A stretch of DNA of 64,000 nucleotides from Candidatus Daviesbacteria bacterium. Lineage in GTDB: Bacteria; Patescibacteriota; Microgenomatia; Daviesbacterales; UBA10151. The position numbers and the translations under genes are program-made. The stretch lies in contig JACOXI010000005.1 of NCBI GenBank assembly GCA_016176335.1, positions 63,391 to 127,390 on the forward strand. Direction: 5' to 3'. The notes under the pieces were generated by a model. It ran no database searches. It had not been told where the DNA came from and was given only the letters and a program-made list of their open reading frames with translations. Shown in pieces: positions 3,653 to 62,084 of this stretch. How positions within the stretch are numbered: position 1 is the first letter of the stretch; every line of letters starts with the position of its first letter.

Positions 3653-4735
3653 TCATATTCTGCAATATGTCCCGTTACCCAAGTTTTGCACCAAACCCGC
3701 AATCTCCATTTTTAATAGTGTGCCGGAAACTTGCGCAGCAGACATTTTTAAATTTCTGCAAATCTCATCCATATGCAATTGTTCATTTCCCAAATACTCC
3801 AAAATCTTCTTCTCCTCTTCTGAAAGATTAACATCATTTGTATTTTTGATATTTGAATTTTGATTTTGTTTGAAACCCATTTCCTCCAAAATCTCTTGAG
3901 GGTCAAAAATGGGCCTTGCCCCTTCTTTCATTAAATCTACCGGGCCGCGGGATAAAGTGGATGTGACAGGACCCGGCACTGCAAAAACTTCCCTTCCTTG
4001 CTCCAAAGCTATACGAGCCGTAATTAACGAACCGGAATCTTCTGCTGCCTCAACCACTAAAACTCCCAAAGACAGTCCTGAAATAATTCTGTTTCTTGCG
4101 GGAAAATTGCCAGGCATTGACGGGTAATCAGGCGGAAATTCGGATAGTACTAATCCCCCTCTATCAATGATTCTCTCCGCCAGAGACCTGTTTTCCGGAG
4201 GGTAGATATTTTTCAACCCTCCCCCCAAAACAGCGATAGTCCTGCCTCCAGCTCTGATTGTTGATAAATGTGCTTCCGCATCTATCCCTCTTGCCAGTCC
4301 CGAAACAATAGTTAGCCCCCCGTCAACCAACCTTTTAACAAACTGCTCTGTCACTGCCCGGCCATAGCCTGTGATCTTTCTTGTTCCCACAACAGCGATA
4401 GCTTTTTCATCCTTTTTAATCTGCCCTTTATAATAAATCACGACCGGCGGATCATAAATTTGTTTTAATAGGTACGGATAGTGTTCATCAAAAATAGTCA
4501 ACCAGGAAATGCCTGCTTTCTTAATAGACTCTGCATAAAGGGCAGGGTCAAGTTTCCTCCTCTCTGCTGCCAGAAGATCCGCTACATTTTGCGGTATTCC
4601 AATTTCCCTAATCACTCCAATATTTGCCTCCCAGGCAAGGCGCGGATCTTTAAAATAATTTAAAATAGCCTTAAGCCTGATTGGCCCCAGCCCATCTATG
4701 GAATGAAGAGCCAGAAGATACGGAATGTTTCCCAT
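3653..4735 (-). CDS. dprA: DNA processing protein DprA/Smf
   Basis: 360 aa. Rossmann-fold DprA core (GLARGIDAEAHLSTIRAGGRTIAVLGGGL), N-terminal HhH/SAM-like part and C-terminal winged-helix-like tail. Confidence 0.85.
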   Translation of the reverse strand: MGNIPYLLALHSIDGLGPIRLKAILNYFKDPRLAWEANIGVIREIGIPQNVADLLAAERRKLDPALYAESIKKAGISWLTIFDEHYPYLLKQIYDPPVVIYYKGQIKKDEKAIAVVGTRKITGYGRAVTEQFVKRLVDGGLTIVSGLARGIDAEAHLSTIRAGGRTIAVLGGGLKNIYPPENRSLAERIIDRGGLVLSEFPPDYPSMPGNFPARNRIISGLSLGVLVVEAAEDSGSLITARIALEQGREVFAVPGPVTSTLSRGPVDLMKEGARPIFDPQEILEEMGFKQNQNSNIKNTNDVNLSEEEKKILEYLGNEQLHMDEICRNLKMSAAQVSGTLLKMEIAGLVQNLGNGTYCRI

Positions 4736-16526: not shown

Positions 16527-17051
16527 ATGTCACCCATGGAAGTAGTCAAAGCACCGGATCCAAGATTGAGAGTTAAAACTAAACCAGTCAAAAAGATTAA
16601 CCAGGCTCTAAAAAATATCTTAAAACAAATGATTAAGCTTACTCAAACCTTTAAAGACCCTGAAGGAGTAGGTTTGGCTGCAACCCAGATAGGGCTGGAT
16701 GGCCGTTTTTTTGTGGCCAAAAATGAACAGCAATTTATTTCTGTGGTAGATCCGAGGATATTATCTTTGGGCAAGCGGACCAAAAAATATTTTGAAGGTT
16801 GTTTGTCTATCCCCAATATGTGGGGTGAAGTCAGAAGGCATACCAATATTAAGGTACAATATCAGGATCAAACAGGAAAAAATATCATACTGTCTTTAAA
16901 AGGGGTACTGGCTTGGATTTTCCAACATGAAATAGATCATTTAAACGGAATTTTATTTTCAGATCGAGTTTTGCAACAAAAAGGCCAGTTCTATAAATAT
17001 ACCGGCAAAGATAAAACAGGCACAGATACATTCGAGCTCGTTGAGCTCTAA
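16527..17051 (+). CDS. def: peptide deformylase
   Basis: 174 aa. Motifs GVGLAATQIG, EGCLSIP, QHEIDHLNG. Confidence 0.9.
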   Translation: MSPMEVVKAPDPRLRVKTKPVKKINQALKNILKQMIKLTQTFKDPEGVGLAATQIGLDGRFFVAKNEQQFISVVDPRILSLGKRTKKYFEGCLSIPNMWGEVRRHTNIKVQYQDQTGKNIILSLKGVLAWIFQHEIDHLNGILFSDRVLQQKGQFYKYTGKDKTGTDTFELVEL

Positions 17052-17064
17052 ACTTAAAAGTCAA

Positions 17065-17790
17065 ATGTCAAAAGTCAAAATTATTTTTTTAGGAACTCCG
17101 CTTTTTGTTAAACTTATTAAAGATACACTGGCTAAGCATTTTACATTGGTAAAGTCACTAAAGGAGGCTGATTTAGCAGTGGTGGCGGCTTATGGCAGGA
17201 TTTTAACAAAAGATGAACTGGATATCCCTCAATATGGTTTTTTAAACATCCACCCCTCCCTTTTACCAAAATACCGGGGGCCGTCCCCAATTCAACAAGC
17301 CATCTTAAATGGAGACAAAGTATCCGGCATCACCATCATTAAAATGGATGAAGATGTGGACCATGGACCGATAATTTATCAAGAAAAATTAGAGCTTTCC
17401 GATAATGATAACTTTGATACTTTGAGTAAAAAGATGTTTCAGCTTGCAGCTCAAGTTTCACCCAAAATTATTGAAGATTTTGTATCCGGAAGAATACAAC
17501 CTACTCCACAAAATCATGATCAGGCCACCTACTGTGTTCGTCTCACCAGAGAAAGTGGGTATTTTCCTATTGATAATCCCCTCTCTGCTGAAAAATTGGA
17601 CAGGATGATTCGCGCCTATCATCCTTGGCCAGGGGTGTGGACTGTATGGGAAATCAAAAATCAAAAATCAAAAATCAAAAAGATTGTAAAGTTTCTCCCT
17701 GATGGAAGGATCCAAATGGAAGGGAAAAAAGCTATGCCGATGCGGGATTTTCTAAACGGCTACCCAGATTTTCCTTTAAAGGAACTTTAA
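17065..17790 (+). CDS. fmt: methionyl-tRNA formyltransferase (short form)
   Basis: Motifs HPSLLPKYRGPSPIQ and formyltransferase core. ATG at 17065 gives MSKVKIIFLGTP. Contains an in-frame (aatcaaa)4 tract. Confidence 0.8.
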   Translation: MSKVKIIFLGTPLFVKLIKDTLAKHFTLVKSLKEADLAVVAAYGRILTKDELDIPQYGFLNIHPSLLPKYRGPSPIQQAILNGDKVSGITIIKMDEDVDHGPIIYQEKLELSDNDNFDTLSKKMFQLAAQVSPKIIEDFVSGRIQPTPQNHDQATYCVRLTRESGYFPIDNPLSAEKLDRMIRAYHPWPGVWTVWEIKNQKSKIKKIVKFLPDGRIQMEGKKAMPMRDFLNGYPDFPLKEL

Positions 17791-20418: not shown

Positions 20419-20798
20419 AACAGTATAGCACAGGCAAAGAACGACACTACCCCTCTTGACAAAACAAGTCTATTAGTTTTATGATTAATGAGTCTAAAGG
20501 ACATTTAGTAGATGGCCCAAAGACACTGCCCTTAACAGGCATCCCTGCGTAGCACGTTTAAAGTCGGAATATTTTTCTTCACTGTTTTGTAACTTTACGG
20601 GAGTCTGGAGTCCATGCACCATTACGGTACACGGCAGGACACCCACCTCAAATTACTGAGGAGAAATCCGACTAACGGCTATTGTAGGGAGAACTTATTT
20701 TTTGGATAAGTATCCGCAGTAATGCGGAATTATCCATTTTCCACCCCACTCTCGTAAATACCTTTAATTTTTTGATAGAATATACTATGTATGCTTAA

Positions 20799-20876: not shown

Positions 20877-20948
20877 GCCGAAGTGGCTCAGTGGTAGAGC
20901 ACGTTCTTGGTAAGAACGGGGTCACGGGTCCGATTCCCGTCTTCGGCT
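20877..20948 (+). tRNA. tRNA-Thr (anticodon GGU)
   Basis: Acceptor gccgaag/cttcggc, anticodon stem cgttc/gaacg with loop ttggtaa. 4 nt after the first tRNA. Confidence 0.7.
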
Positions 20949-21133
20949 CACGAGCAAAGCGAGTGAGACAAGATGGGAACAAGATCTTCGAGTGAAACGA
21001 GAAGTAGACTTATTCCCGTCTTCGGCTCCAAGGCCGCGGGTTCAGCAATTTCGAGCATTTGCGAGAAATTGGGCGTATTATCCACCACCTGCTCCTCCCT
21101 AAATTTGCTTACCATAAGATGTATAATTAGTTT

Positions 21134-21826
21134 ATGACCTTTAAAATAAAGAATCTTAAATATATTTTCCCTGTTTTACTTATTATTTTATTTATAGTTT
21201 TAGTAAAAGTTCAGAATCGGGTGGCTACCTGTACGATTACACCAGCTGTTTTAAATACATCTGATGTTGATGGTTCAACTGTTAATCTGACTTGGGCAAA
21301 TGGTCAAAACAGCAAAATAACTTATTTAAATGTCTCTACTTCCAGAACTCTAAATCCTGACGGATCTTTAGAAACGCCAGATATTGTAAATGATGTTGTT
21401 ACAAACAAAAATTCATATTCAAAGAGTGATTTTAGATCAGGAACATATTACTGGAATATTGTAAGTGATGGCTGTAGGCAAAGAAAAGTTTCAAATCAGG
21501 AAACATTTACTGTCTATTCAAAGGTTAAAGCCGATTGCGAACTTAAATCAGCAGTTTTAGGTACACCAGTTGTAAAAGGCGCAAACGTTACCTTTAACTG
21601 GACAAATGATCAAAACACAGAAGCCACTTATATAAATGTCTCCAGCTCAAATACCGTAAATGCTAATGGAGTGTTAGAGAAAGTAGATATTGCAAATGAT
21701 GTTGTTACCAGTAAAACCTATTCTATGAAAGAGATTTCATCTCCTGGAACTTATTATTGGAATATTGCAAGTGATGGTTGCGGACAAAGAAAAATGTCTG
21801 ACCTTGGCGCCTTTACTGTCCAATAG
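21134..21826 (+). CDS. secreted protein with two tandem ~95-aa repeat domains
   Basis: 230 aa with signal/TM. Two internal copies of ...VNLTWANGQN..TYLNVS...GTYYWNI.SDGC.QRK... Confidence 0.5.
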   Translation: MTFKIKNLKYIFPVLLIILFIVLVKVQNRVATCTITPAVLNTSDVDGSTVNLTWANGQNSKITYLNVSTSRTLNPDGSLETPDIVNDVVTNKNSYSKSDFRSGTYYWNIVSDGCRQRKVSNQETFTVYSKVKADCELKSAVLGTPVVKGANVTFNWTNDQNTEATYINVSSSNTVNANGVLEKVDIANDVVTSKTYSMKEISSPGTYYWNIASDGCGQRKMSDLGAFTVQ

Positions 21827-21881
21827 TCCGCGAGTCCAACTCTAACACCGACTCCCGCTCCATTATGCTATACTATCGCCT

Positions 21882-22055
21882 ATGGCAAAAAAAGGTAACA
21901 GACAATTATTTCAACTTCAATGCTCTGTTTGTAAAAACAGGAATTATACCCAATCCAAAAATACCGTAAATATTAAGGATAAACTTACTTTGAGTAAATT
22001 TTGTAAACATTGTAAGAAACACACCCCGCATAACGAAGTAAAAATCGGGAAATAA
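21882..22055 (+). CDS. rpmG: 50S ribosomal protein L33
   Basis: 57 aa found by manual translation (below the ORF-track cutoff): MAKKGNRQLFQLQCSVCKNRNYTQSKNT...LTLSKFCKHCKKHTPHNEVKIGK. L33 zinc-ribbon pattern. Confidence 0.75.
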   Translation: MAKKGNRQLFQLQCSVCKNRNYTQSKNTVNIKDKLTLSKFCKHCKKHTPHNEVKIGK

Positions 22056-22341
22056 TTATTTCTTACTGCGTTTGGAGCGCTTCCACAATGTGGGAGCTAC
22101 CACAATAGAAATGGCAAGAACCAGAATTGAAACTGTTAAATAGAATGCTTGCAATTCAGTCATAGATTTTTTTCAAACCAGCTGTTTATTGTTTAGTTCA
22201 GGAATGAACAAGTTCTTGCTTCGCAATAATATCCATCCTTGTTATATAATACATCATGTTTAGGGATGTGATGAAATGGTATCATGGGGGTCTCCAAAAC
22301 CCCTCTTCCAGGTCCGAATCCTGGCATCCCTGCTTGGATGG

Positions 22342-22614
22342 TTATTGTACCTGAATAATTAATTTGGAGCCTAGGGCTTGGGTTAGCTTATCTAAGAAGT
22401 CTACCGAAGGGTTTGAATTACCTGATTCTAATCTTGCGATAGCAGACTGTTTTGTACCTACTTTTTTGGCAAGATCTGCTTGAGTTAATCCCCTTTTATT
22501 CCTTGTCTCAATTAGTTGCGAGATCAAAGCATAACGAGGTTTGAGTCTTTCGTACTCTCTTTTAACCTCTTCATTCTTTAATAATTCCTTCTTAACTGTT
22601 TTCCAATTTTCCAT
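22342..22614 (-). CDS. higA: XRE-family HTH antitoxin (HigA-like)
   Basis: 90 aa. HTH segment LTQADLAKKVGTKQSAIARLESG. Downstream of the toxin gene. Confidence 0.7.
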   Translation of the reverse strand: MENWKTVKKELLKNEEVKREYERLKPRYALISQLIETRNKRGLTQADLAKKVGTKQSAIARLESGNSNPSVDFLDKLTQALGSKLIIQVQ

Positions 22615-22651
22615 AAACTTATTATATCATATACGTTATACTGTTTGCGTA

Positions 22652-22984
22652 TTATTTATTTAAACTATTAAAACGCTGCTCTGCTGTTTTTATTTCTTTA
22701 GAAGGTGTTTTCTCAGTTTTCTTCAAAAATACATGCAATAAATATATATTTTTCTTCACGAATCCATAAATTATCCGTACTTCTTGCCTACCTCTAATTC
22801 TCAATTCATAAAAATCCTGAGTTATCTTCTTACTGTGAGGCATGCCCAAAAATGGACCATGTGTTTCTAATAGATCAATTTCATTAGAAATTTTGGAAAC
22901 TGTTGAGTCATCAAGAGTTTTAATAAATTCTTTAACAACTTTCTCACCTCTGGCTGTTTCAAAGAAAAGTATTTCCCAATTCAT
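22652..22984 (-). CDS. higB: RelE/HigB-family (Gp49-like) toxin
   Basis: 110 aa. Conserved ELRIRGRQEVRIIY and LLHVFLKKTEKTP segments. Toxin gene precedes the antitoxin gene, as in higBA. Confidence 0.65.
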   Translation of the reverse strand: MNWEILFFETARGEKVVKEFIKTLDDSTVSKISNEIDLLETHGPFLGMPHSKKITQDFYELRIRGRQEVRIIYGFVKKNIYLLHVFLKKTEKTPSKEIKTAEQRFNSLNK

Positions 22985-23166
22985 AAGTTGATGATACCAG
23001 ATTATTTTCTTTTATACTTAGTAATTTAACTGATTTTTGATATACTAACTCTGGGTATTTGATATTCTGGGCCCAATTAAAGGTTCTGAAATCATTTACT
23101 AATCCCTGCATTTTTTTATCCTTAAGAGATGAGATGTAAATAAACTACAATGATATAATCTGATTA

Positions 23167-23469
23167 ATGATTAAGGATATTTCTGCAATACTTATCTGGT
23201 CTGAAAATTATAGAAAACTAGCTGATTGGTATATTGAAAAACTTGGTTTGGAAGTATTAGAAGAGTTAAACCATTCTGAAGACACAGGAGTTGGATTTCA
23301 GGTTGGTCATGTTTATCTCTGGATAGGACAACATTCAAAAGTAAAAGGGAAAAATGAAGATATTCATAGACATATGTTTAACTTTGTTTATGAGGAATTG
23401 AAATCTAAAGGAGTAAGATTTTTAGCCAAACCTTTTAAAGCTCCAACATTTGACAAAGTGTATATTTAA
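23167..23469 (+). CDS. VOC/glyoxalase-family fragment
   Basis: 100 aa. Start resembles a VOC beta-alpha-beta-beta-beta module. Too short for a full enzyme, so possibly a remnant. Confidence 0.3.
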   Translation: MIKDISAILIWSENYRKLADWYIEKLGLEVLEELNHSEDTGVGFQVGHVYLWIGQHSKVKGKNEDIHRHMFNFVYEELKSKGVRFLAKPFKAPTFDKVYI

Positions 23470-23487
23470 GTGTACATTTAAGTATAT

Positions 23488-23763
23488 ATGGAATATATTA
23501 CAACAACCCATTTAAGGACGAGATCTTCTCAACTTGTTGCTACCCTTCAAAAAGGTGGTTCGGTTTCGCTCATTCACCGATCAAAAGTGATTGGAAAAAT
23601 TGAGCCAGCTCAAAAAAGCCCTATTACAATAACCGATATTAAGGCGTTTGAAAAAGCTCTTGCAGGAATAAAACCAAAAAAGCTTATTCCCAGAAAAGAC
23701 AGGGACAAGGTGTATAGGCAACGCCTTATGGAAAAATATGGCAAAAATATTTCTAGACACTAA
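23488..23763 (+). CDS. Phd/YefM-like antitoxin
   Basis: 91 aa. N-terminus ITTTHLRTRSSQLVATLQKGGSVSLIHRSKVIGKIEP fits the Phd/YefM pattern. Overlaps the downstream PIN gene. Confidence 0.5.
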   Translation: MEYITTTHLRTRSSQLVATLQKGGSVSLIHRSKVIGKIEPAQKSPITITDIKAFEKALAGIKPKKLIPRKDRDKVYRQRLMEKYGKNISRH

Positions 23764-24106
23764 TGTCTTTGTTGATCTGGCAGAAAAAAGAAAACAAATA
23801 ACTCTAGCTGATTTTCTGGAACATGAGTTATATATTTCTCCTCTATCAATTCATATTCTAATCTATTTATATAAATATCAGATTCCTAGTAAGAAATTGA
23901 CTAATTTATTAAAAAAATTCATCAACCTTGTTCCTTTTGATAAAGGAATTACAGAATCTTCTTCTCAAGGCCCTACGGAAGACTTTGAGGATAATGTACA
24001 ACTGCATAGTGCTGCAGAAGCAGAATGTGATCTTTTCTTAACCAGTGATACAAAGTTATTAAGTTTGAAATTTTTTGGCAAGGCCCGGCTTGTCTCTACC
24101 CTATAA
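23738..24106 (+). CDS. vapC: PIN-domain toxin (VapC-like)
   Basis: 122 aa. N-terminal IFLDTNVF acidic motif and C-terminal LTSD. Confidence 0.7.
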   Translation: MAKIFLDTNVFVDLAEKRKQITLADFLEHELYISPLSIHILIYLYKYQIPSKKLTNLLKKFINLVPFDKGITESSSQGPTEDFEDNVQLHSAAEAECDLFLTSDTKLLSLKFFGKARLVSTL

Positions 24107-24158
24107 ACCCCTGCCTGATTGATTTCTCAAGCTTAACCAGTGTATAATCCCACCTACC

Positions 24159-24560
24159 ATGAGTGCTGAACAAACAGAGCTTAAAAGACATGTTCATCAG
24201 TTAGCATGGGATAATTTACAAGCTAGTGCCTTCCCCAATTTAACTGCGGCTAAGGTTTTGGCCGACCCACGACGCATACACCGAGAGCTATTTGGTGAGA
24301 GGTTTGAAAGTTGGAGGGAAGAACATGGTCAAGGGGAAGGAAACAAAGTAGGTATTCGACTGAGCTGGCAGGATTCGAATCAAGTTAGACGCATTGTTGA
24401 GATCATCTCTGAACCAAACGGGGGATTTATGGTTCGTGGAGGTATCCTTGGTTCCACTCAAATAATGCCACGTTCAACAGCAGAGTATCAAAGACAAGCC
24501 CTTGAAAAGGCTTGTACACATCCCATCAGAGTTCTCCTATCTCCACCATCTCCTCAGTAA
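24159..24560 (+). CDS. hypothetical protein (locally GC-richer)
   Basis: 133 aa ORF. Noticeably higher GC than its neighbours. Confidence 0.3.
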   Translation: MSAEQTELKRHVHQLAWDNLQASAFPNLTAAKVLADPRRIHRELFGERFESWREEHGQGEGNKVGIRLSWQDSNQVRRIVEIISEPNGGFMVRGGILGSTQIMPRSTAEYQRQALEKACTHPIRVLLSPPSPQ

Positions 24561-24580: not shown

Positions 24581-25303
24581 TTAAAAATTCACCTTGATTC
24601 TGGCAAATTGGATATACAGATTGGTGCCTTGAGAGCTTTTGACTTGTAATTTGTAGGTTTTGCTACCTTGGGGTAAGGTAAAGGAGGAAGATGTTTTCAA
24701 ACTAAAAGAGGTGGAGGTGGTGTCTAGTTGTGCTGAAACAGCAGATGAATCTGTCACATTATACAGTCTGACCGAACCTGTGCCTGCAGCTTCCACTAAC
24801 CTAAACGTCACCTCCAAAATCATGCCTTTATAGCCCGGGTAATTGGCCGTATCTAAAGCAATTTCATATTCAGCAGTGGTATACCAATCTTTATCCCCCC
24901 AAGGTCCTCCGCCTGAACCTAAAGGGATATAAACTGTGGGCTTTGATGATGTAGCAGTTGTGGTAGGTTGTCCTAAAGAAGCAACCTGCACTTTAAGATC
25001 AGTAATGGAGGCCTCAATTGAGTTCAACCTGGAATTGATGGAGCTGTCGCCTGCATCTTTACCGCTTAATCCATTTACTTTTTTTACAACTTCAATTAAA
25101 GCATCCTCCAAAACTTTAACCCTGGCCTCCAGCGTGGCATTTGGCAAGGTTTTTGGTACCTCAACAGGACCTTGAGTTTCGCTCACTTTCGACCCGATCA
25201 AATTGCTGCTACTGCCGCTTGATTTGATGGCAAAAAATCTCCAGTAAATAAGACCTGTACCTATTAAAATTATTAGTAAAACTGCGGGCAGGATTCTAAT
25301 CAC
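24581..25303 (-). CDS. hypothetical membrane-anchored protein with coiled coil
   Basis: 240 aa. N-terminal TM, coiled-coil segment, Ser/Thr-rich beta C-terminus. Confidence 0.4.
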   Translation of the reverse strand: MIRILPAVLLIILIGTGLIYWRFFAIKSSGSSSNLIGSKVSETQGPVEVPKTLPNATLEARVKVLEDALIEVVKKVNGLSGKDAGDSSINSRLNSIEASITDLKVQVASLGQPTTTATSSKPTVYIPLGSGGGPWGDKDWYTTAEYEIALDTANYPGYKGMILEVTFRLVEAAGTGSVRLYNVTDSSAVSAQLDTTSTSFSLKTSSSFTLPQGSKTYKLQVKSSQGTNLYIQFARIKVNF

Positions 25304-27375: not shown

Positions 27376-27489
27376 TGCCAAAACTCAAATGTCAAAACTT
27401 AAAACTTAAAGATTTTAGCGCGTAGCGCGAACTTGTTCAGATTTGAGTTGTAGATTTGCGATTTGAGATCTAAGATTTAAGATAAACAA
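27376..27489. repeat. same heptamer-repeat palindromic element family, centre gcgcgtagcgcg
   Basis: aaactcaaatgtcaaaacttaaaacttaaag ... tagcgcgtagcgcga ... agatttgagttgtagatttgcgatttgagatctaagatttaagat. Confidence 0.75.
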
Positions 27490-28460: not shown

Positions 28461-30854
28461 ATGCCAAAAGGACAAAGAAAAACCAATTTTAAAAACAACC
28501 CTTCTTCTCTTATCCTCCTTTTGGTTCAATTTATCCTGATAAAAATAGGCCAGGCACCTATCTGGGTGATCAAATTATTATTATCTATAGCTGTGGGAGG
28601 CTACCTCCGAGCGCGGCGAGCCCTAGACAAGCCACGTCTGACGTGGCGAGCGTATCCGAGCCATGCACCAAGCGGTGCGTGGCGCAGGACGCTAGCGTTG
28701 GCGAGCAAGAGAGTGTGGTTGCCGACCGAAGCCACAAAGAGGCAGTATCTATTCAATCAATTCTTTCATCGTCGTCGTGGCCGGCCCAGAAAATCTTCAT
28801 TTATTCCCTACTATTTAAATAAATTTAAGTTGTTTGTCAAAAGAAGGGTGCCCAAAAAAACTAAAATAGCCGTAGTTTTTGGAGTGGGTTTAATCATACT
28901 TACTCTTTACACTCAATTCATTCTTAATGCCGCAGATACCCTGCCAAACCCTGATAAACTCATCTCTCCCAGACCTGCCACCACAGAAATATTTGACAGA
29001 AATGGCAAACTTTTATACAGAATTTATGAGGGTACAAATAGAAGTCTTGTCAGAATGGATGAATTACCAAAACATTTAATTTTGGCAACTCTTGCCTCCG
29101 AAGATAAAAATTTTTACAACCATCCGGGAGTGGATCCTGTTGCCATATTCAGGGCTTTCTATCACAATTTAAGGTTTGGCAGGACCGAGGGAGCCTCCAC
29201 CATCACCCAACAACTGATCAAAAACTCTTTTCTTACTCCGGAAAAAACTTACAGTAGAAAAATCAAAGAGGTAATTTTATCTCTGTGGACAGAAACCAGA
29301 TATTCAAAAGAGGAGATTCTTAAAATGTATTTTAATGAAGCTCCATACGGAGGGCCCAACTGGGGAATTAAGGCTGCGGCCAGATCCTACTTTGGCAAGA
29401 AACCCGTAGATTTAACTCTTGCGGAAGCAGCTTTTTTGGCAGGACTTCCCGCCTCCCCCAGCCAATTTTCCCCATATGGCGTCAGAGCCGATTTGGGAAT
29501 AGCGCGTCAAAAACAGGTTTTAAAAAGGATGTTAGATGAACATTACATCACTGACGGGGAGTATACTCAAGCAATATCGGAAAAACTGACATTCAGACCC
29601 CAAAATCAAGACATCAATGCCCCTCATTTTGTGTTCTATATCAGAGATATTCTCGCTCAACGTTACGGAGAGAAAACTGTTTCCCAGGGAGGATTAAAGG
29701 TGATCACCACTTTAGATTTGGGATTGCAAAAGGAAGTTGAAAAAATTATTTCAGATGAAATTGCAAACCTTGCCGGACTTGATGTTAAAAACGGAGCAAG
29801 CATGGTTTTGGATGCAAAAGAGGGCCAGATTTTAGCCATGGTAGGATCGCGGGATTATTCTTACCCGGAATTTGGAAATTTCAATGCCACGCTCGCCCTT
29901 CGTCAACCAGGCTCTTCAATAAAACCCATAACTTATGCCACGGCTTTCAAAGAAGGTTACTTTCCGGGAAATACTATCTTGGATTCTCCTGTCACATTCC
30001 CAGATGGAGCCAGAAATTATTCACCGATAAATTATGACGGGGTGTTTCATGGACCTGTCTCCATCCGCACTGCTTTGGGTTCATCCTTAAATGTCCCTGC
30101 TGTTAAGCTTTTGGCCAGTGTGGGTATTCCCGATATGATCAAAACCGCCCAGGATTTAGGTATCACCACCTTTGATGATCCTAAACGATTTGGTCTGTCT
30201 TTAACATTGGGTGGAGGGGAAGTAAAAATGATGGAGATGATGGGAGTTTATCAAGCTTTTTCCCAGATGGGGCTTGCTCAAAAACCTACCGGCATCTTAA
30301 AAGTGACGGATTCTGTGGGCAATATATTGGAAGAATATGAATCCCAACCCAAACAGGTACTGCAACCGGAGGTGGCATATCTTATTACCAGTATACTTTC
30401 CGATAATACGGCAAGAACTCCGGCTTTCGGACCTAATTCCCTGCTACTTATCAGAGGCAATGAAGTGGCTGTAAAAACAGGCACCTCGGATAATAAAAGG
30501 GATAATTGGACTTTTGGATACACTCCTGATTTTGTGGTTGGGGTTTGGGTGGGCAATAATGACAATACTCCCATGAACCCGCAATTAACATCAGGAATAA
30601 CCGGTGCTACCCCAATTTGGAATAAGATCATAAGAGGGCTTTTGGCACAAAAACCCAGCCTCGGATTCATCAAACCCAGTGGCATCATTGAGGCGCAAAT
30701 TGACGGCAGGAGGGATCTGGCCATTTCAGGCTTCATCCCCAAAGGATTGGTCAAGGTCCGAACCCAAGATGTTCAAACCATCTATTTTGACTCTTTTTCA
30801 TCTTATGCCACTCAATCTGCCCAGGCTGCATTGGAAAGTGGAACTAGGAACTAG
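28461..30854 (+). CDS. penicillin-binding protein 1A (bifunctional GT51 glycosyltransferase / transpeptidase)
   Basis: 797 aa. GT51 motifs (ASEDKNFYNHPGVD, TITQQL). Transpeptidase SxxK (SSIK) and KTGTS. The N-terminal cytoplasmic region contains a GC-rich in-frame element. Confidence 0.85.
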   Translation: MPKGQRKTNFKNNPSSLILLLVQFILIKIGQAPIWVIKLLLSIAVGGYLRARRALDKPRLTWRAYPSHAPSGAWRRTLALASKRVWLPTEATKRQYLFNQFFHRRRGRPRKSSFIPYYLNKFKLFVKRRVPKKTKIAVVFGVGLIILTLYTQFILNAADTLPNPDKLISPRPATTEIFDRNGKLLYRIYEGTNRSLVRMDELPKHLILATLASEDKNFYNHPGVDPVAIFRAFYHNLRFGRTEGASTITQQLIKNSFLTPEKTYSRKIKEVILSLWTETRYSKEEILKMYFNEAPYGGPNWGIKAAARSYFGKKPVDLTLAEAAFLAGLPASPSQFSPYGVRADLGIARQKQVLKRMLDEHYITDGEYTQAISEKLTFRPQNQDINAPHFVFYIRDILAQRYGEKTVSQGGLKVITTLDLGLQKEVEKIISDEIANLAGLDVKNGASMVLDAKEGQILAMVGSRDYSYPEFGNFNATLALRQPGSSIKPITYATAFKEGYFPGNTILDSPVTFPDGARNYSPINYDGVFHGPVSIRTALGSSLNVPAVKLLASVGIPDMIKTAQDLGITTFDDPKRFGLSLTLGGGEVKMMEMMGVYQAFSQMGLAQKPTGILKVTDSVGNILEEYESQPKQVLQPEVAYLITSILSDNTARTPAFGPNSLLLIRGNEVAVKTGTSDNKRDNWTFGYTPDFVVGVWVGNNDNTPMNPQLTSGITGATPIWNKIIRGLLAQKPSLGFIKPSGIIEAQIDGRRDLAISGFIPKGLVKVRTQDVQTIYFDSFSSYATQSAQAALESGTRN
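28596..28735. repeat. GC-rich ~140-bp hairpin-containing element inserted in-frame in the PBP1A N-terminal coding region (homologous to 31640..31775 in nusG)
   Basis: ggaggctacctccgagcgcggcgagccctagacaagccacgtctgacgtggc...gttggcgagcaagagagtgtggttgccgaccgaagcc. Shared blocks with the nusG copy. Internal palindrome gccacgtctgacgtggc. Confidence 0.7.
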
Positions 30855-31554: not shown

Positions 31555-32308
31555 TTTAAAACTCAAAACTCAAATGTCAAATGTCAAAGCTGGAGAGGAT
31601 CAGACAGCAAAATCTGAACCAGTTAATGATATAAGCGAAGGGAGACTGCCTCCGAACGCAGCGAGCCCTAGAGTCGCCGAAGGCGACCGTACCCGAGGCG
31701 AAGCCGAAGGCGAGCCGCAGGGCGTAAGTACCGAAGGTACAGTTGGCGAGCAAGAGAGCGGGGCGGTCGACCGATCAGGCAATCCTAACGCCAAATGGTA
31801 TGTTGTTCATACTTATTCCGGTCATGAAAACAAAGTGGCGCACACTTTAAAGCAGCGGATTGAATCCGAACATTTGGAAGAGAAAATTTTAGATGTTTTG
31901 GTGCCTATGCAGGATAAAATTGAAATAAAAGGCGGCAAAAAAGTAAGCATTAAAGAAAAAATCTTCCCCGGCTATATTTTGGTAAAAATGGTTTTGGAAG
32001 ATAGTTCCTGGCTGGCTGTCAGAACAACTCAAGGTGTCACCTCCTTTGTGGGTATGGGTAATAAACCCACCCCGATCTCCGATGCGGAGGTGGCCACCAT
32101 AGTCAAATTTACCCAAGAGGAGGCTCCTGTTTATAAGCAGGTTTTCTCTGTTTCGGATACTATCAAAATTGTGGACGGGCCTTTTGCAGATTTTATTGGT
32201 AAAGTGGATAATGTGGATGAGGAAAAAGGCAAGGTTAAGGTTTTGGTATCAATATTCGGGCGTGAAACACCAGTGGAGTTGGATTTTCTGCAGGTGCAGA
32301 AGATATGA
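31544..32308 (+). CDS. nusG: transcription termination/antitermination factor NusG with ~75-aa repeat-derived N-terminal extension
   Basis: NGN start KWYVVHTYSGHENKV and KOW C-terminus. No in-frame start codon near the NGN domain, so the extension (heptamer tract plus GC-rich element) appears to be translated. Confidence 0.85.
   Translation: MDDDLKLKTQMSNVKAGEDQTAKSEPVNDISEGRLPPNAASPRVAEGDRTRGEAEGEPQGVSTEGTVGEQESGAVDRSGNPNAKWYVVHTYSGHENKVAHTLKQRIESEHLEEKILDVLVPMQDKIEIKGGKKVSIKEKIFPGYILVKMVLEDSSWLAVRTTQGVTSFVGMGNKPTPISDAEVATIVKFTQEEAPVYKQVFSVSDTIKIVDGPFADFIGKVDNVDEEKGKVKVLVSIFGRETPVELDFLQVQKI
31640..31775. repeat. GC-rich element copy inside the nusG N-terminal extension
   Basis: gggagactgcctccgaacgcagcgagccctagagtcgccgaaggcgac...gttggcgagcaagagagcggggcggtcgaccgatcagg. 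Palindrome gtcgccgaaggcgac. Read in a different frame than the PBP1A copy. Confidence 0.7.
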
Positions 32309-53519: not shown

Positions 53520-53601
53520 AAAGTATTATACATAAAAAATCTCAAATGGTAAATCTCAAATGTCAAAACTAGATTTGCGTTTTGCGATTTGAGTTTTGAG
53601 A
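53520..53601. repeat. same heptamer-repeat palindromic element family
   Basis: aaatctcaaatggtaaatctcaaatgtcaaaactagatttgcgttttgcgatttgagttttgagatt. Confidence 0.75.
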
Positions 53602-56201: not shown

Positions 56202-56340
56202 AAGTTAATAATAGCATATCTCAAATGTCAAAACTCAAATGTCAAATCTGAATCTTAAAACTTAAAACTAGACTAAAACAGTTTTGAGATTTAAGTTTTA
56301 GTTTTGAGTTTTGCGATTTGCGTTTTGAGTTAACATTAGC
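56202..56340. repeat. palindromic composite intergenic element built from degenerate heptamer repeats (tcaaatg arm / cattttga arm)
   Basis: Left arm tctcaaatgtcaaaactcaaatgtcaaatctgaatcttaaaacttaaaac, centre tagactaaaacag, right arm ttttgagatttaagttttagttttgagttttgcgatttgcgttttgag. The arms are reverse complements of each other. Confidence 0.8.

Positions 56341-60791: not shown

Positions 60792-62084
<1,293 letters not shown>

What the first reader, a model, noticed from the sequence alone, without database searches (positions are those of the whole stretch)
20950..24560. Small accessory segment next to the tRNA-Thr pair, with a duplicated tRNA 3' end and two TA modules
About 60 bp after the second tRNA-Thr, a 17-bp copy of its 3' end (attcccgtcttcggctc, 21013..21029, followed by ca) reappears. 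This is the kind of att duplication left by integrase-mediated insertion or excision at a tRNA. Downstream lie a secreted tandem-repeat protein, an isolated rpmG far from its usual secE-nusG partners, higB-higA, a truncated VOC fragment, phd-vapC, and a GC-richer orphan ORF (24159..24560). This looks like a decayed integrative island or a TA-stabilised region.
Basis: partly seen in the sequence, partly recalled or inferred. Interest (0 to 1): 0.55.

Follow-up and report, generated by a model that had tools for sequence, protein, structure and literature searches.

The report
Insertion scars beside two tRNA genes
In this uncultured Daviesbacteria (CPR) chromosome, an old, conserved tRNA and ribosomal-protein gene row has picked up small accessory genes at two separate spots next to tRNA genes, one spot still carrying repeated copies of the tRNA's tail; this is an ordinary kind of genome scar, not one single island.

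Summary
It is far beyond chance, and an independent assembly reproduces it.

The segment is not one island. rpmG and tRNA-Trp belong to this backbone.

**Slot A (20949-21862)**
- It holds three tRNA-Thr 3' ends: the intact CCA-less one, an exact copy followed by CCA, and a decayed copy abutting the rpmG promoter.
- These bracket a 62-nt spacer and the rep230 gene.
- This fits two successive site-specific insertions into the tRNA's T-loop-to-3' end, now without an integrase (CIME-like).
- A metagenomic contig with the identical tRNA carries a large serine recombinase plus Prim-Pol element at this exact position.

**Slot B (22334-24110)**
- It holds higBA, a truncated VOC gene and phd-vapC, and has no att repeat.
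- phd-vapC sits after tRNA-Trp in four relatives.
- orf133 looks like backbone, not cargo.

Verdict: a new member of a known kind, of low to moderate interest.

The parts
20877..20948 (+). tRNA-Thr(GGU), intact, with no encoded CCA. Its 3' 16 nt plus one base form repeat copy 1 (20933-20949).
   Evidence: ARAGORN. Rfam tRNA model at 65.9 bits over the full length. Exact 17-mer match.
20950..21011 (+). 62-nt spacer between copies 1 and 2. It is read as the remnant of an inserted element (P' and P arms). It contains an internal sub-repeat, CGAGTGAGAC...ATCTT / CGAGTGAAAC...GACTT.
   Evidence: It is not tRNA-like (p = 0.76). It is homologous to the spacer after the same 17-mer in metagenome contig L167 (p < 0.001). 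It has no Rfam hit.
21012..21030 (+). Repeat copy 2: the 17-mer plus CA, giving a tRNA 3' end with CCA. It is read as a displaced former 3' end (attR-like).
   Evidence: Exact match. Relatives L018, L045, L142 and L178 encode CCA on this tRNA.
21134..21826 (+). rep230, a membrane-anchored or secreted protein with two ~100-aa repeats. It is the cargo of the older insertion.
   Evidence: ORF listing and Pfam show only weak or faint domain hits. There are 16 homologues, all named ones from Daviesbacteria, in at least 4 different genomic contexts. It is absent between tThr and rpmG in L018, L134, L118 and others.
21827..21862 (+). Decayed third tRNA-Thr 3' end. The core CCGACTCCCG^CTCCA lies at 21848-21862, with a 7-nt gap relative to the intact copy. 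It abuts the conserved rpmG promoter and leader (21863-21881).
   Evidence: Window 21857-21881 is 92% identical to the last 6 nt of the L018 tRNA (GCTCCA) plus its flank up to the rpmG ATG. The extended alignment runs into the T-arm. That T-arm extension is only modestly significant, p about 0.03.
21882..22055 (+). rpmG (L33). This is backbone, not cargo.
   Evidence: Pfam PF00471 at 9e-17. It lies between tRNA-Thr(GGU) and tRNA-Trp in more than 30 related loci.
22056..22163 (-). 35-aa hydrophobic small ORF (tm35) between rpmG and tRNA-Trp.
   Evidence: It is 74% identical over 35 aa in L167, at the same position downstream of rpmG.
22262..22333 (+). tRNA-Trp(CCA).
   Evidence: ARAGORN. Rfam at 56.5 bits.
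22342..22984 (-). higB (22652-22984) and higA (22342-22614), a toxin-first type II TA pair. It starts 8 nt after tRNA-Trp.
   Evidence: PF05973 Gp49 at 9e-23 over the full profile length, and PF01381 HTH_3 at 3e-15. GC is 0.297 and 0.359. Homologues in relatives lie elsewhere, after rplA.
23167..23469 (+). Truncated VOC/glyoxalase gene. It is 100 aa and lacks the C-terminal ~22 aa and an internal ~9 aa.
   Evidence: PF00903 at 3e-5. The 125-aa homologues in L070, L080 and L082 also lie downstream of tRNA-Trp.
23488..24106 (+). A phd-like 91-aa ORF (23488-23763) overlapping vapC, a PIN-domain toxin (23738-24106).
   Evidence: PF01850 PIN at 1.4e-8. Both genes have homologues as a pair downstream of tRNA-Trp in L151, L134, L034 and L079, at 34-53% identity.
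24159..24560 (+). orf133, a lineage-restricted gene of unknown function. It is a backbone-like neighbour of h240.
   Evidence: It has 3 homologues at 68-74% identity. In L099 the homologue lies beside A2M, h240 and VanW. It is invariant next to vapC and h240 in same-species contigs from 6 samples. GC is 0.453, against 0.404 +/- 0.041 for backbone genes.
24581..25303 (-). h240, the first backbone gene to the right of slot B.
   Evidence: In L018 its stop codon lies 2 nt after tRNA-Trp. The gap is 2-2247 bp across 9 loci, and the window has the largest.

Best explanation
The segment is a conserved Daviesbacteria gene row: 6S-like RNA, tRNA-Thr(UGU), tRNA-Thr(GGU), rpmG, tRNA-Trp, h240 and onward to secE-nusG. 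It is interrupted at two independent, indel-prone slots.

**Slot A (20949-21862)**
- This slot records two successive insertions into the 3' end of tRNA-Thr(GGU). The crossover was in the T-loop, and each insert brought its own copy of the T-loop-to-3' end.
- The older insertion placed rep230 between the tRNA and its original CCA-bearing tail. That tail is now the decayed remnant touching the rpmG promoter.
- The younger insertion displaced the then-current tail, which is copy 2 with CCA. That insert has since been deleted down to a 62-nt spacer. The tRNA now ends in the incoming CCA-less tail followed by ACGAGCAAAGCGAGTG.
- Nothing mobile remains: there is no recombinase. These are CIME-like relics.
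- Inferred: erosion stops at the essential tRNA on one side and at a promoter on the other, which would explain the very short spacer.
- Inferred: the recombinase was probably a large serine recombinase like the one in contig L142, or else a tyrosine integrase.

**Slot B (22334 to about 24110)**
- This slot is a separate variable interval with no att repeat.
- A phd-vapC pair and a VOC gene are long-term or recurrent tenants.
- higBA is the likeliest recent arrival.
- The VOC gene has been truncated.
For: **Shown**
- The exact 17-nt repeat is beyond chance and is reproduced in a second assembly.
- In L018, tRNA-Thr(GGU)-CCA lies 19-20 nt from rpmG. The window keeps GCTCCA plus that flank at 21857-21881, so about 908 bp are inserted between the tRNA body and an old tail.
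- Gap sizes across relatives are 19-3985 bp for tThr to rpmG (n = 21) and 2-2247 bp for tTrp to h240 (n = 9). rpmG and tTrp keep their positions throughout.
- The 17-mer plus ACGArCAAAGCGAGTG recurs in L167. There it is fused to a tRNA body whose 5' acceptor strand (AGGGGTG) cannot pair with it. Rfam gives only 42.3 bits, as a local match. About 26 nt further on comes a degenerate second copy. This shows that this tail travels with its flank.
- L142 carries an identical tRNA-Thr(GGU). It is followed at once by a convergent 559-aa large serine recombinase (Resolvase + Recombinase + Zn_ribbon_recom) and a Prim-Pol/AAA_25 gene.
- L151, L138, L129 and L208 show the same layout: an intact CCA-less tRNA, then 7-17 nt, then a decayed second tRNA-Thr 3' part. 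In L151 and L138 that part ends directly upstream of rpmG.
- The repeat geometry, from mid T-loop to the 3' end (17-19 nt), matches the 20-bp repeats of the serine-recombinase ssrA islands of Dehalococcoides, which also occur in tandem (PMC3146451).
- Decay to CIMEs and tandem accretion are a described route (PMC5704250).

**Slot B**
- Pfam assignments.
- Low GC of higB, the VOC fragment and vapC, at 0.30-0.32 against 0.404 +/- 0.041.
- phd-vapC homologues after tRNA-Trp in four loci.
- VOC homologues are 125 aa.
Against: - No recombinase gene was found among the 30 flanking window ORFs scanned, including every ORF of integrase-like size (16 others were not scanned), and none among the finding's own genes. 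The mechanism is therefore inferred from scars alone.
- The third copy is decayed. Only GCTCCA plus its flank is solid; the T-arm part has p about 0.03.
- No population variant lacking either insert could be seen, because Logan contigs break inside the tRNAs.
- rep230 lies directly before rpmG in L086 as well, without flanking tRNA remnants. It is a chromosomal gene in other contexts elsewhere, so it may not have arrived on an integrative element.
- The copy1-spacer-copy2 module is shared, in diverged form, with L167. Yet copy 2 is still perfect in the window, which needs gene conversion, constraint or a recent event.
- In L151 the displaced half does not match the intact tRNA's acceptor strand. 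At least some of these structures therefore need more than a single integration.
- No matching attP or element was found in IMG/VR.
- Slot B has no repeat of the tRNA-Trp end.
Confidence: 0.6

Rival explanations
1. One reading: a single decayed integrative island, or TA-stabilised block, spans 20950-24560. The 17-nt copy marks its left att site, and rpmG was carried along or stranded inside it.
For: - The att-like repeat is real.
- Two TA modules and a gene fragment are present.
- Several genes have low GC.
Against: - rpmG and tRNA-Trp keep the same order and orientation in more than 30 related loci, while the flanking gaps vary independently.
- No further copy of the 17-mer, even with up to 3 mismatches, occurs in the window to close such an island.
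- The distal remnant lies before rpmG.
- orf133 is syntenic with h240 elsewhere.
Confidence: 0.04
2. No mobile element was involved. The extra tRNA tails come from local tandem duplication or replication slippage of the tRNA-Thr(GGU) gene, followed by decay. rep230 was placed there by ordinary rearrangement.
For: - The spacers are very short: 62 nt here and 7-26 nt in L151, L138, L129 and L167.
- L129 and L138 carry an almost whole but decayed second tRNA copy.
- No integrase was found.
- L169 shows 144-bp tandem units each ending in a tRNA-Thr tail.
Against: - The window's spacer has no similarity to the tRNA's 5' part (p = 0.76).
- The duplication starts exactly within the T-loop.
- The intact copy lacks CCA while both displaced copies have it.
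- The same tail plus flank is joined to a non-matching tRNA body in L167.
- In L151 the displaced T-arm differs by compensatory pairs, so it comes from a different functional allele.
- An integrative element sits at this exact tRNA in L142.
Confidence: 0.17
3. The slots were remodelled by natural transformation and homologous recombination. The conserved tRNA genes served as homology anchors for DNA from other Daviesbacteria. One junction was resolved illegitimately, which left the partial tRNA copies.
For: - The window encodes DprA and ComEC.
- Identical tRNA-Thr(GGU) genes occur in contigs with unrelated flanks: L111, L114, L142, L178 and L184.
- rep230 homologues sit in at least 4 contexts.
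- The intact and displaced halves in L151 come from different alleles.
Against: - Homologous crossover within the tRNA would give a clean hybrid, not a duplication.
- The exact boundary at the T-loop and the CCA pattern fit site-specific recombination better.
- Nothing here tests this model directly.
Confidence: 0.13
4. Copy 2 and its spacer form a functional RNA element, such as a processing or termination signal or a mimic of a tRNA 3' end. On this view they are maintained by selection and are not a scar.
For: - Copy 2 is still 17/17 identical, although the homologous module in L167 has diverged.
- UUCCCGUCUU can pair with the upstream AAGAUGGGAA. The fold of 20949-21133 has a z-score of -2.2.
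Against: - The z-score is weak.
- The pairing partner is absent from the L167 spacer, so there is no covariation support.
- There is no Rfam hit.
- Most relatives lack the element altogether.
Confidence: 0.05

Closest known systems
Dehalococcoides ssrA-specific genomic islands (DsiB large serine recombinase), McMurdie et al. 2011, PMC3146451
   Same: [quoted passage not shown]
- Several repeats lie in tandem downstream of the gene.
- Some units lack integration genes.
- In the related contig L142, a ~560-aa large serine recombinase lies next to the tRNA on the opposite strand, as DsiB does next to attL.
   Different: - The target is tRNA-Thr(GGU), not ssrA.
- The window has no recombinase or integration module.
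- The units are tiny, at 62 nt and about 0.8 kb.
- The L142 recombinase is only distantly related to CcrB and XisF, at 59-69 bits, far below the family cut-offs.
- The att repeat of the L142 element could not be determined.
CIMEs (cis-mobilizable elements) and tandem accretion at tRNA genes; Pavlovic 2004 and Guedon 2017 (PMC5704250)
   Same: - The segments are bounded by att-type repeats of a tRNA 3' end and have lost their integrase and transfer genes.
- More than one such unit lies in tandem at the same tRNA.
   Different: - The right-hand att of the rep230 unit is decayed, with a 7-nt gap, so it is probably no longer recombinogenic.
- Mobilisation in cis was not shown.
- No functional partner element was found in this genome.
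Classical tRNA-targeted genomic islands and prophages with tyrosine integrases (T-loop sublocation, Williams 2002; cited from my own knowledge)
   Same: - Insertion is into the 3' part of a tRNA gene.
- The tRNA is restored by element-borne sequence.
- The original tail is displaced and remains as a direct repeat.
   Different: - There is no integrase gene adjacent to the tRNA.
- The insert sizes are far below those of any functional element.
Type II toxin-antitoxin pairs HigBA (Gp49/RelE-fold toxin with an XRE-HTH antitoxin) and VapBC (PIN toxin)
   Same: - Domain content, small gene sizes and gene order match: toxin first for HigBA, antitoxin first with an overlap for VapBC.
- They sit in a variable, AT-rich interval.
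   Different: - The antitoxin of the PIN toxin matches no Pfam or NCBIfam family.
- Activity was not tested.
- phd-vapC is positionally conserved across species, unlike typical strain-specific TA cargo.

Membership tests
tRNA-targeted integrative element / genomic island | Direct repeat of the tRNA 3' end bounding the inserted DNA | tested here: met
   An exact 17-nt repeat lies 62 nt after the tRNA. A third, decayed copy at 21848-21862 adjoins the ancestral flank.
tRNA-targeted integrative element / genomic island | Insert absent from the same site in related genomes | tested here: met
   The tThr(ggt)-to-rpmG gap is 19-102 bp in 11 relatives (for example L018, L134, L118, L144, L183, L218, L079, L045), against 932 bp in the window.
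tRNA-targeted integrative element / genomic island | Site-specific recombinase gene inside or next to the insert | tested here: not met
   The only gene between the repeats is rep230. No recombinase domain was found in 30 flanking window ORFs (16 more not scanned) or in the finding's own genes, and there is no homologue of the L142 recombinase.
tRNA-targeted integrative element / genomic island | Atypical base composition of the insert | tested here: inconclusive
   rep230 has GC 0.336, against 0.404 +/- 0.041 for backbone genes (1.7 sd). The backbone gene rpmG is lower still, at 0.299.
tRNA-targeted integrative element / genomic island | Evidence of mobility: excision, a circular junction, or presence/absence within a population | not testable with these tools
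   Same-species contigs from 6 or more samples break inside the tRNAs.
CIME / tandem accretion | att sites at both ends, no integration or transfer genes, and tandem arrangement at one target | tested here: met
   Three tRNA tails bracket two gene-poor units. The outermost att is decayed.
CIME / tandem accretion | Mobilisable in cis by a related functional element | not testable with these tools
   This needs experiments or population data.
Serine-recombinase islands of the Dehalococcoides ssrA-GI type | [quoted passage not shown] | tested here: met
   The repeat starts at T-loop base 5 (A58) and runs through the discriminator plus C(CA), which is 17-19 nt. The comparison is with PMC3146451.
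Serine-recombinase islands of the Dehalococcoides ssrA-GI type | Large serine recombinase adjacent to attL on the reverse strand | tested here: not met
   It is absent from the window. It is present at the identical tRNA in contig L142: 559 aa with Resolvase + Recombinase + Zn_ribbon_recom.
HigBA type II toxin-antitoxin | RelE-fold Gp49/HigB toxin gene directly upstream of an XRE-HTH antitoxin gene | tested here: met
   PF05973 at 8.9e-23 covers profile positions 1-89 of 90. PF01381 scores 2.8e-15. There is a 37-nt gap, the genes share a strand, and the toxin comes first.
HigBA type II toxin-antitoxin | Toxicity neutralised by the partner | not testable with these tools
   This needs an experiment.
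VapBC type II toxin-antitoxin | PIN-domain toxin preceded by a small overlapping antitoxin gene | tested here: met
   PF01850 at 1.4e-8 covers profile positions 1-116 of 120. The 91-aa upstream ORF overlaps by 26 nt, and the pair is conserved together in 4 relatives.
VapBC type II toxin-antitoxin | Antitoxin belonging to a known antitoxin family (Phd/YefM, AbrB, RHH, etc.) | tested here: not met
   The 91-aa protein has no Pfam or NCBIfam hit. The label 'phd' rests on its position only.
Third (degenerate) tRNA gene | Similarity to a tRNA 5' part and cloverleaf upstream of the 17-mer copy | tested here: not met
   There is no ARAGORN or Rfam hit. The spacer compared with the tRNA 5' part gives p = 0.76.

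The most novel reading that the evidence does not exclude
The 3' end of tRNA-Thr(GGU) may be the dedicated attachment site of a family of small integrative elements in Microgenomates (CPR) bacteria. These elements would be driven by a large serine recombinase, as in contig L142.

On this reading, their traffic repeatedly swaps the tRNA's tail, sometimes for a non-matching one as in L167. It would also leave the short 'CCA-less tRNA + spacer + CCA-bearing tail' modules seen in the window and in L151, L138, L129 and L167.

That would be a CPR counterpart of the Dehalococcoides ssrA islands. It would also be a route by which an essential tRNA gene is edited by mobile DNA.
Probability: 0.3. Interest if true: 0.45.

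Novelty: new member of a known kind. Interest (0 to 1): 0.3.

Why it matters
Practically, this corrects the annotation. The block is two tRNA-adjacent variable slots inside a conserved translation-gene row, not one island. The extra tRNA tails are relics, not genes.

More broadly, integrative elements of CPR bacteria are poorly documented. This locus, together with contig L142, points to tRNA-Thr(GGU) as a recurrent integration site. It also gives a concrete candidate for follow-up: a large serine recombinase plus Prim-Pol element.

The locus also shows how far such elements can erode. They shrink to tens of nucleotides when they are hemmed in by an essential tRNA on one side and an essential promoter on the other.

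Tried and rejected
1. **Further copies of the 17-mer.** A search of the window allowing up to 3 mismatches found none.
2. **A repeat of the tRNA-Trp 3' end in slot B.** The best scores, 16-19, fall inside the shuffle range (mean 17.3, maximum 28).
3. **An integrase in the window.** Pfam scans of 30 ORFs flanking the finding (including every integrase-sized ORF; 16 others were not scanned) and of the finding's own genes, plus tblastn with the L142 recombinase, found none.
4. **An attP or related element in IMG/VR.** I searched with the 17-mer, a longer T-arm pattern, the tail plus flank, and the L142 recombinase. All returned nothing.
5. **Population variants in same-species contigs.** These were uninformative, because Logan contigs end inside the tRNAs.
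6. **Spacer plus copy 2 as a decayed tRNA.** Rejected.
7. **Spacer plus copy 2 as a structured RNA.** Support is weak: z = -2.2 and no covariation.
8. **The 11-mer GGCATCCCTGC at 20538, identical to the tRNA-Trp tail.** It lies in a conserved helix of the 6S-like RNA, so I treat it as coincidence.
9. **The metagenome scan for the 17-mer.** Many hits are unrelated coding sequence, so the counts are not exhaustive.
10. **Promoter and terminator scan.** It found no more than chance.

Full report
**Observation**

The 17-mer ATTCCCGTCTTCGGCTC occurs exactly twice in the window, at 20933-20949 and 21012-21028. No further copies appear even with three mismatches, and the chance expectation is 0.09.

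Copy 1 is the end of tRNA-Thr(GGU), which spans 20877-20948 (ARAGORN; Rfam 65.9 bits). It begins at the fifth base of the T-loop and runs through the T-stem, the acceptor strand, the discriminator and one more base. Copy 1 is followed by ACG, so no CCA is encoded. Copy 2 is followed by CA and so reads as a tRNA end with CCA. An independent assembly (L001) reproduces both copies and the spacer exactly.

- tRNA-Trp at 22262-22333;
- a 35-aa minus-strand ORF at 22056-22163;
- a third tRNA-tail remnant before rpmG;
- secE-nusG-rplK-rplA following 9.3 kb downstream on the same strand.

**Organism and backbone**

A search with NusG retrieved 80 loci, mostly Candidatus Daviesbacteria and other Microgenomates. 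I mapped the window's proteins and tRNAs onto them and onto metagenome contigs. This gives a conserved order: M50 protease, MFS(-), tRNA-Thr(UGU), [tRNA-Tyr], tRNA-Thr(GGU), rpmG, tRNA-Trp, h240(-), VanW, GH1, h298, PBP1, ASCH(-), secE, nusG, L11, L1.

In L018, tRNA-Thr(GGU)-CCA lies 19 nt from rpmG, rpmG lies 15 nt from tRNA-Trp, and tRNA-Trp lies 2 nt from the h240 stop codon. Across loci the three gaps vary independently:
- tThr to rpmG: 19-3985 bp;
- rpmG to tTrp: 15-1371 bp;
- tTrp to h240: 2-2247 bp.

So rpmG and tRNA-Trp are backbone.

**Slot A (20949-21862)**

Window 21857-21881 is 92% identical to the last six bases of the L018 tRNA (GCTCCA) plus its flank up to the rpmG start. A gapped alignment extends this into the T-arm: CCGACTCCCG^CTCCA against CCGATTCCCGTCTTCGGCTCCA, with a 7-nt gap. 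That extension alone is only modestly significant, at p about 0.03.

The layout is therefore: intact tRNA, 62 nt, tail copy with CCA, 103 nt, rep230, decayed tail with CCA, rpmG promoter.

The 62-nt spacer is not a decayed tRNA 5' part (p = 0.76). It is homologous to the sequence after the same 17-mer in contig L167 (p < 0.001). In L167 the shared tail plus ACGAaCAAAGCGAGTG is joined to a tRNA body whose 5' acceptor strand, AGGGGTG, cannot pair with CTTCGGC. Rfam gives that tRNA only a local 42.3-bit match. This indicates that the CCA-less tail travels together with its downstream flank. By implication, the CCA-bearing copies are the displaced originals.

**Related loci**

It still found contigs with an identical tRNA-Thr(GGU): L111, L114, L142, L178 and L184. 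Their downstream DNA is unrelated from one to the next.

In L142 the tRNA, with CCA, is followed at once by a convergent 559-aa large serine recombinase and a Prim-Pol/AAA_25 gene. The recombinase is distantly related to XisF and CcrB. This is an integrative element at exactly this tRNA.

L151, L138, L129 and L208 show an intact CCA-less tRNA followed within 7-17 nt by a decayed second tRNA-Thr 3' portion. In L151 and L138 that portion abuts rpmG. In L151 the displaced T-arm differs from the intact one by compensatory pairs, so it comes from another functional allele.

**Mechanism**

Shown:
- tandem direct repeats of the tRNA tail that start in the T-loop;
- inserts that are absent in relatives;
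- a recombinase-bearing element at the same tRNA elsewhere.

Inferred:
- two successive site-specific integrations took place;
- both elements then eroded to recombinase-less relics;
- deletions were limited by the essential tRNA on one side and by promoters on the other.

The geometry and the tandem arrangement match the serine-recombinase ssrA islands of Dehalococcoides (PMC3146451). They also match the CIME and accretion route (PMC5704250).

**Weak points**

- No recombinase was found in the window.
- No attP was found in IMG/VR.
- No population polymorphism could be seen.
- rep230 homologues occur in at least four chromosomal contexts. One is directly before rpmG in L086, with no tRNA remnants. 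rep230 may therefore have arrived by another route.
- Copy 2 remains perfect although the homologous L167 module has diverged.

**Slot B (22334 to about 24110)**

higA's stop codon lies 8 nt after tRNA-Trp. No copy of the tRNA-Trp tail exists in the slot.

- HigB (PF05973) and HigA (HTH_3) look intact. Their homologues in relatives lie after rplA instead.
- The VOC gene is 100 aa against 125 aa in homologues, and it lacks the C-terminal strands. Full-length homologues also lie downstream of tRNA-Trp in L070, L080 and L082.
- The phd-like ORF and vapC have paired homologues downstream of tRNA-Trp in L151, L134, L034 and L079, at 34-53% identity.
- orf133 has three homologues at 68-74% identity. 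One lies beside h240 and VanW. orf133 is invariant in same-species contigs. Its GC of 0.453 is within the backbone range of 0.404 +/- 0.041.
- higB, the VOC fragment and vapC have GC of 0.30-0.32.

Slot B is therefore a long-lived variable interval. higBA is the likeliest recent addition. It is not part of the tRNA-Thr insert.

**Verdict**

This is a new example of a known kind: tRNA-targeted integration relics plus toxin-antitoxin modules, in a CPR genome. Interest is low to moderate. The most useful lead is the serine-recombinase element at the identical tRNA in L142.

Separately, the 230-nt conserved RNA upstream of the tRNA cluster is a divergent 6S RNA that Rfam does not call in this window.

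Noticed in passing
window 20489-20720 (+): A conserved structured RNA of about 230 nt has a promoter-like TTGACA-17-TATGAT upstream. My covariance model finds 10 copies, and every one lies 78-205 nt upstream of tRNA-Thr(UGU) on the same strand. In the alignment 90.5% of cells are paired, and 42 of 66 pairs show compensatory changes. Rfam reports nothing in the window at E up to 10. However, the L114 homologue hits the 6S/SsrS model at 37.6 bits (E = 8e-5, below the gathering score of 46.4). It is probably a divergent 6S RNA with an extra invariant 5' hairpin.
   Followed up: yes
L167 4066-4139 and 3540-5738 (Ga0209514_10021316): This tRNA-Thr(GGU)-like gene has a 5' acceptor strand that cannot pair with its 3' end, and that 3' end is the window's 17-mer plus flank. 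The contig also carries rpmG twice: 102 nt at the contig end are identical to the copy 2.1 kb upstream. This suggests a tandem duplication or an assembly cycle.
   Followed up: partly
L142 1-6423 (OBEQ010959841.1): An integrative element lies next to a tRNA-Thr(GGU) identical to the window's. It has a 559-aa large serine recombinase whose ORF runs 64 nt into the antisense of the tRNA, and a Prim-Pol/PriCT/AAA_25 protein. The contig does not reach the far end of the element.
   Followed up: partly
L169 13793-14154 and L166 (Ga0194035): A tRNA-Thr(CGU) is followed by two more 144-bp tandem units. Each unit ends in the same tRNA tail with CCA.
   Followed up: no
window 28595-28729 and 31640-31774: A GC-rich DNA repeat of about 135 bp (79-88% identical in blocks) sits inside the 5' coding parts of both the PBP1 gene and nusG, in different reading frames. 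It looks like a small insertion sequence that extends both N-termini.
   Followed up: partly
window 17046-17079, 27379-27406, 31558-31591, 53537-53573, 56220-56331, 61216-61241: A short repeated motif of the type AAAACTCAAATGTCAAA is scattered at gene starts and in intergenic sites.
   Followed up: no
window 22056-22163 (-): A 35-aa hydrophobic ORF lies between rpmG and tRNA-Trp. It is 74% identical in L167 at the same position, so it is probably a real small membrane protein.
   Followed up: partly
window 20930-20936 and 22312-22318: The T-loops of tRNA-Thr(GGU) and tRNA-Trp read UCCGAUU and UCCGAAU. They have C at position 55, where U (pseudouridine) is nearly universal. Several relatives share this.
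   Followed up: no
window 21866-21881, 21120-21133, 24143-24158: TATAAT-like boxes lie only 6-10 nt before the start codons of rpmG, rep230 and orf133, and of rpmG in many relatives. This suggests leaderless or very short-leader mRNAs.
   Followed up: no
window 3653-4735 (-) versus L083 6001-6708: In the genome behind L004 and L083, the rep230 homologue lies between PBP2 and DprA. In the window those two genes are only 28 bp apart. The family therefore relocates between genomes.
   Followed up: partly
L086 3194-3800: Between rpmG and tRNA-Trp, this relative carries a small HTH ORF and what looks, by eye, like a homing-endonuclease fragment. A GIY-YIG gene follows after tRNA-Trp. This is one more sign that these slots collect selfish DNA.
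   Followed up: no
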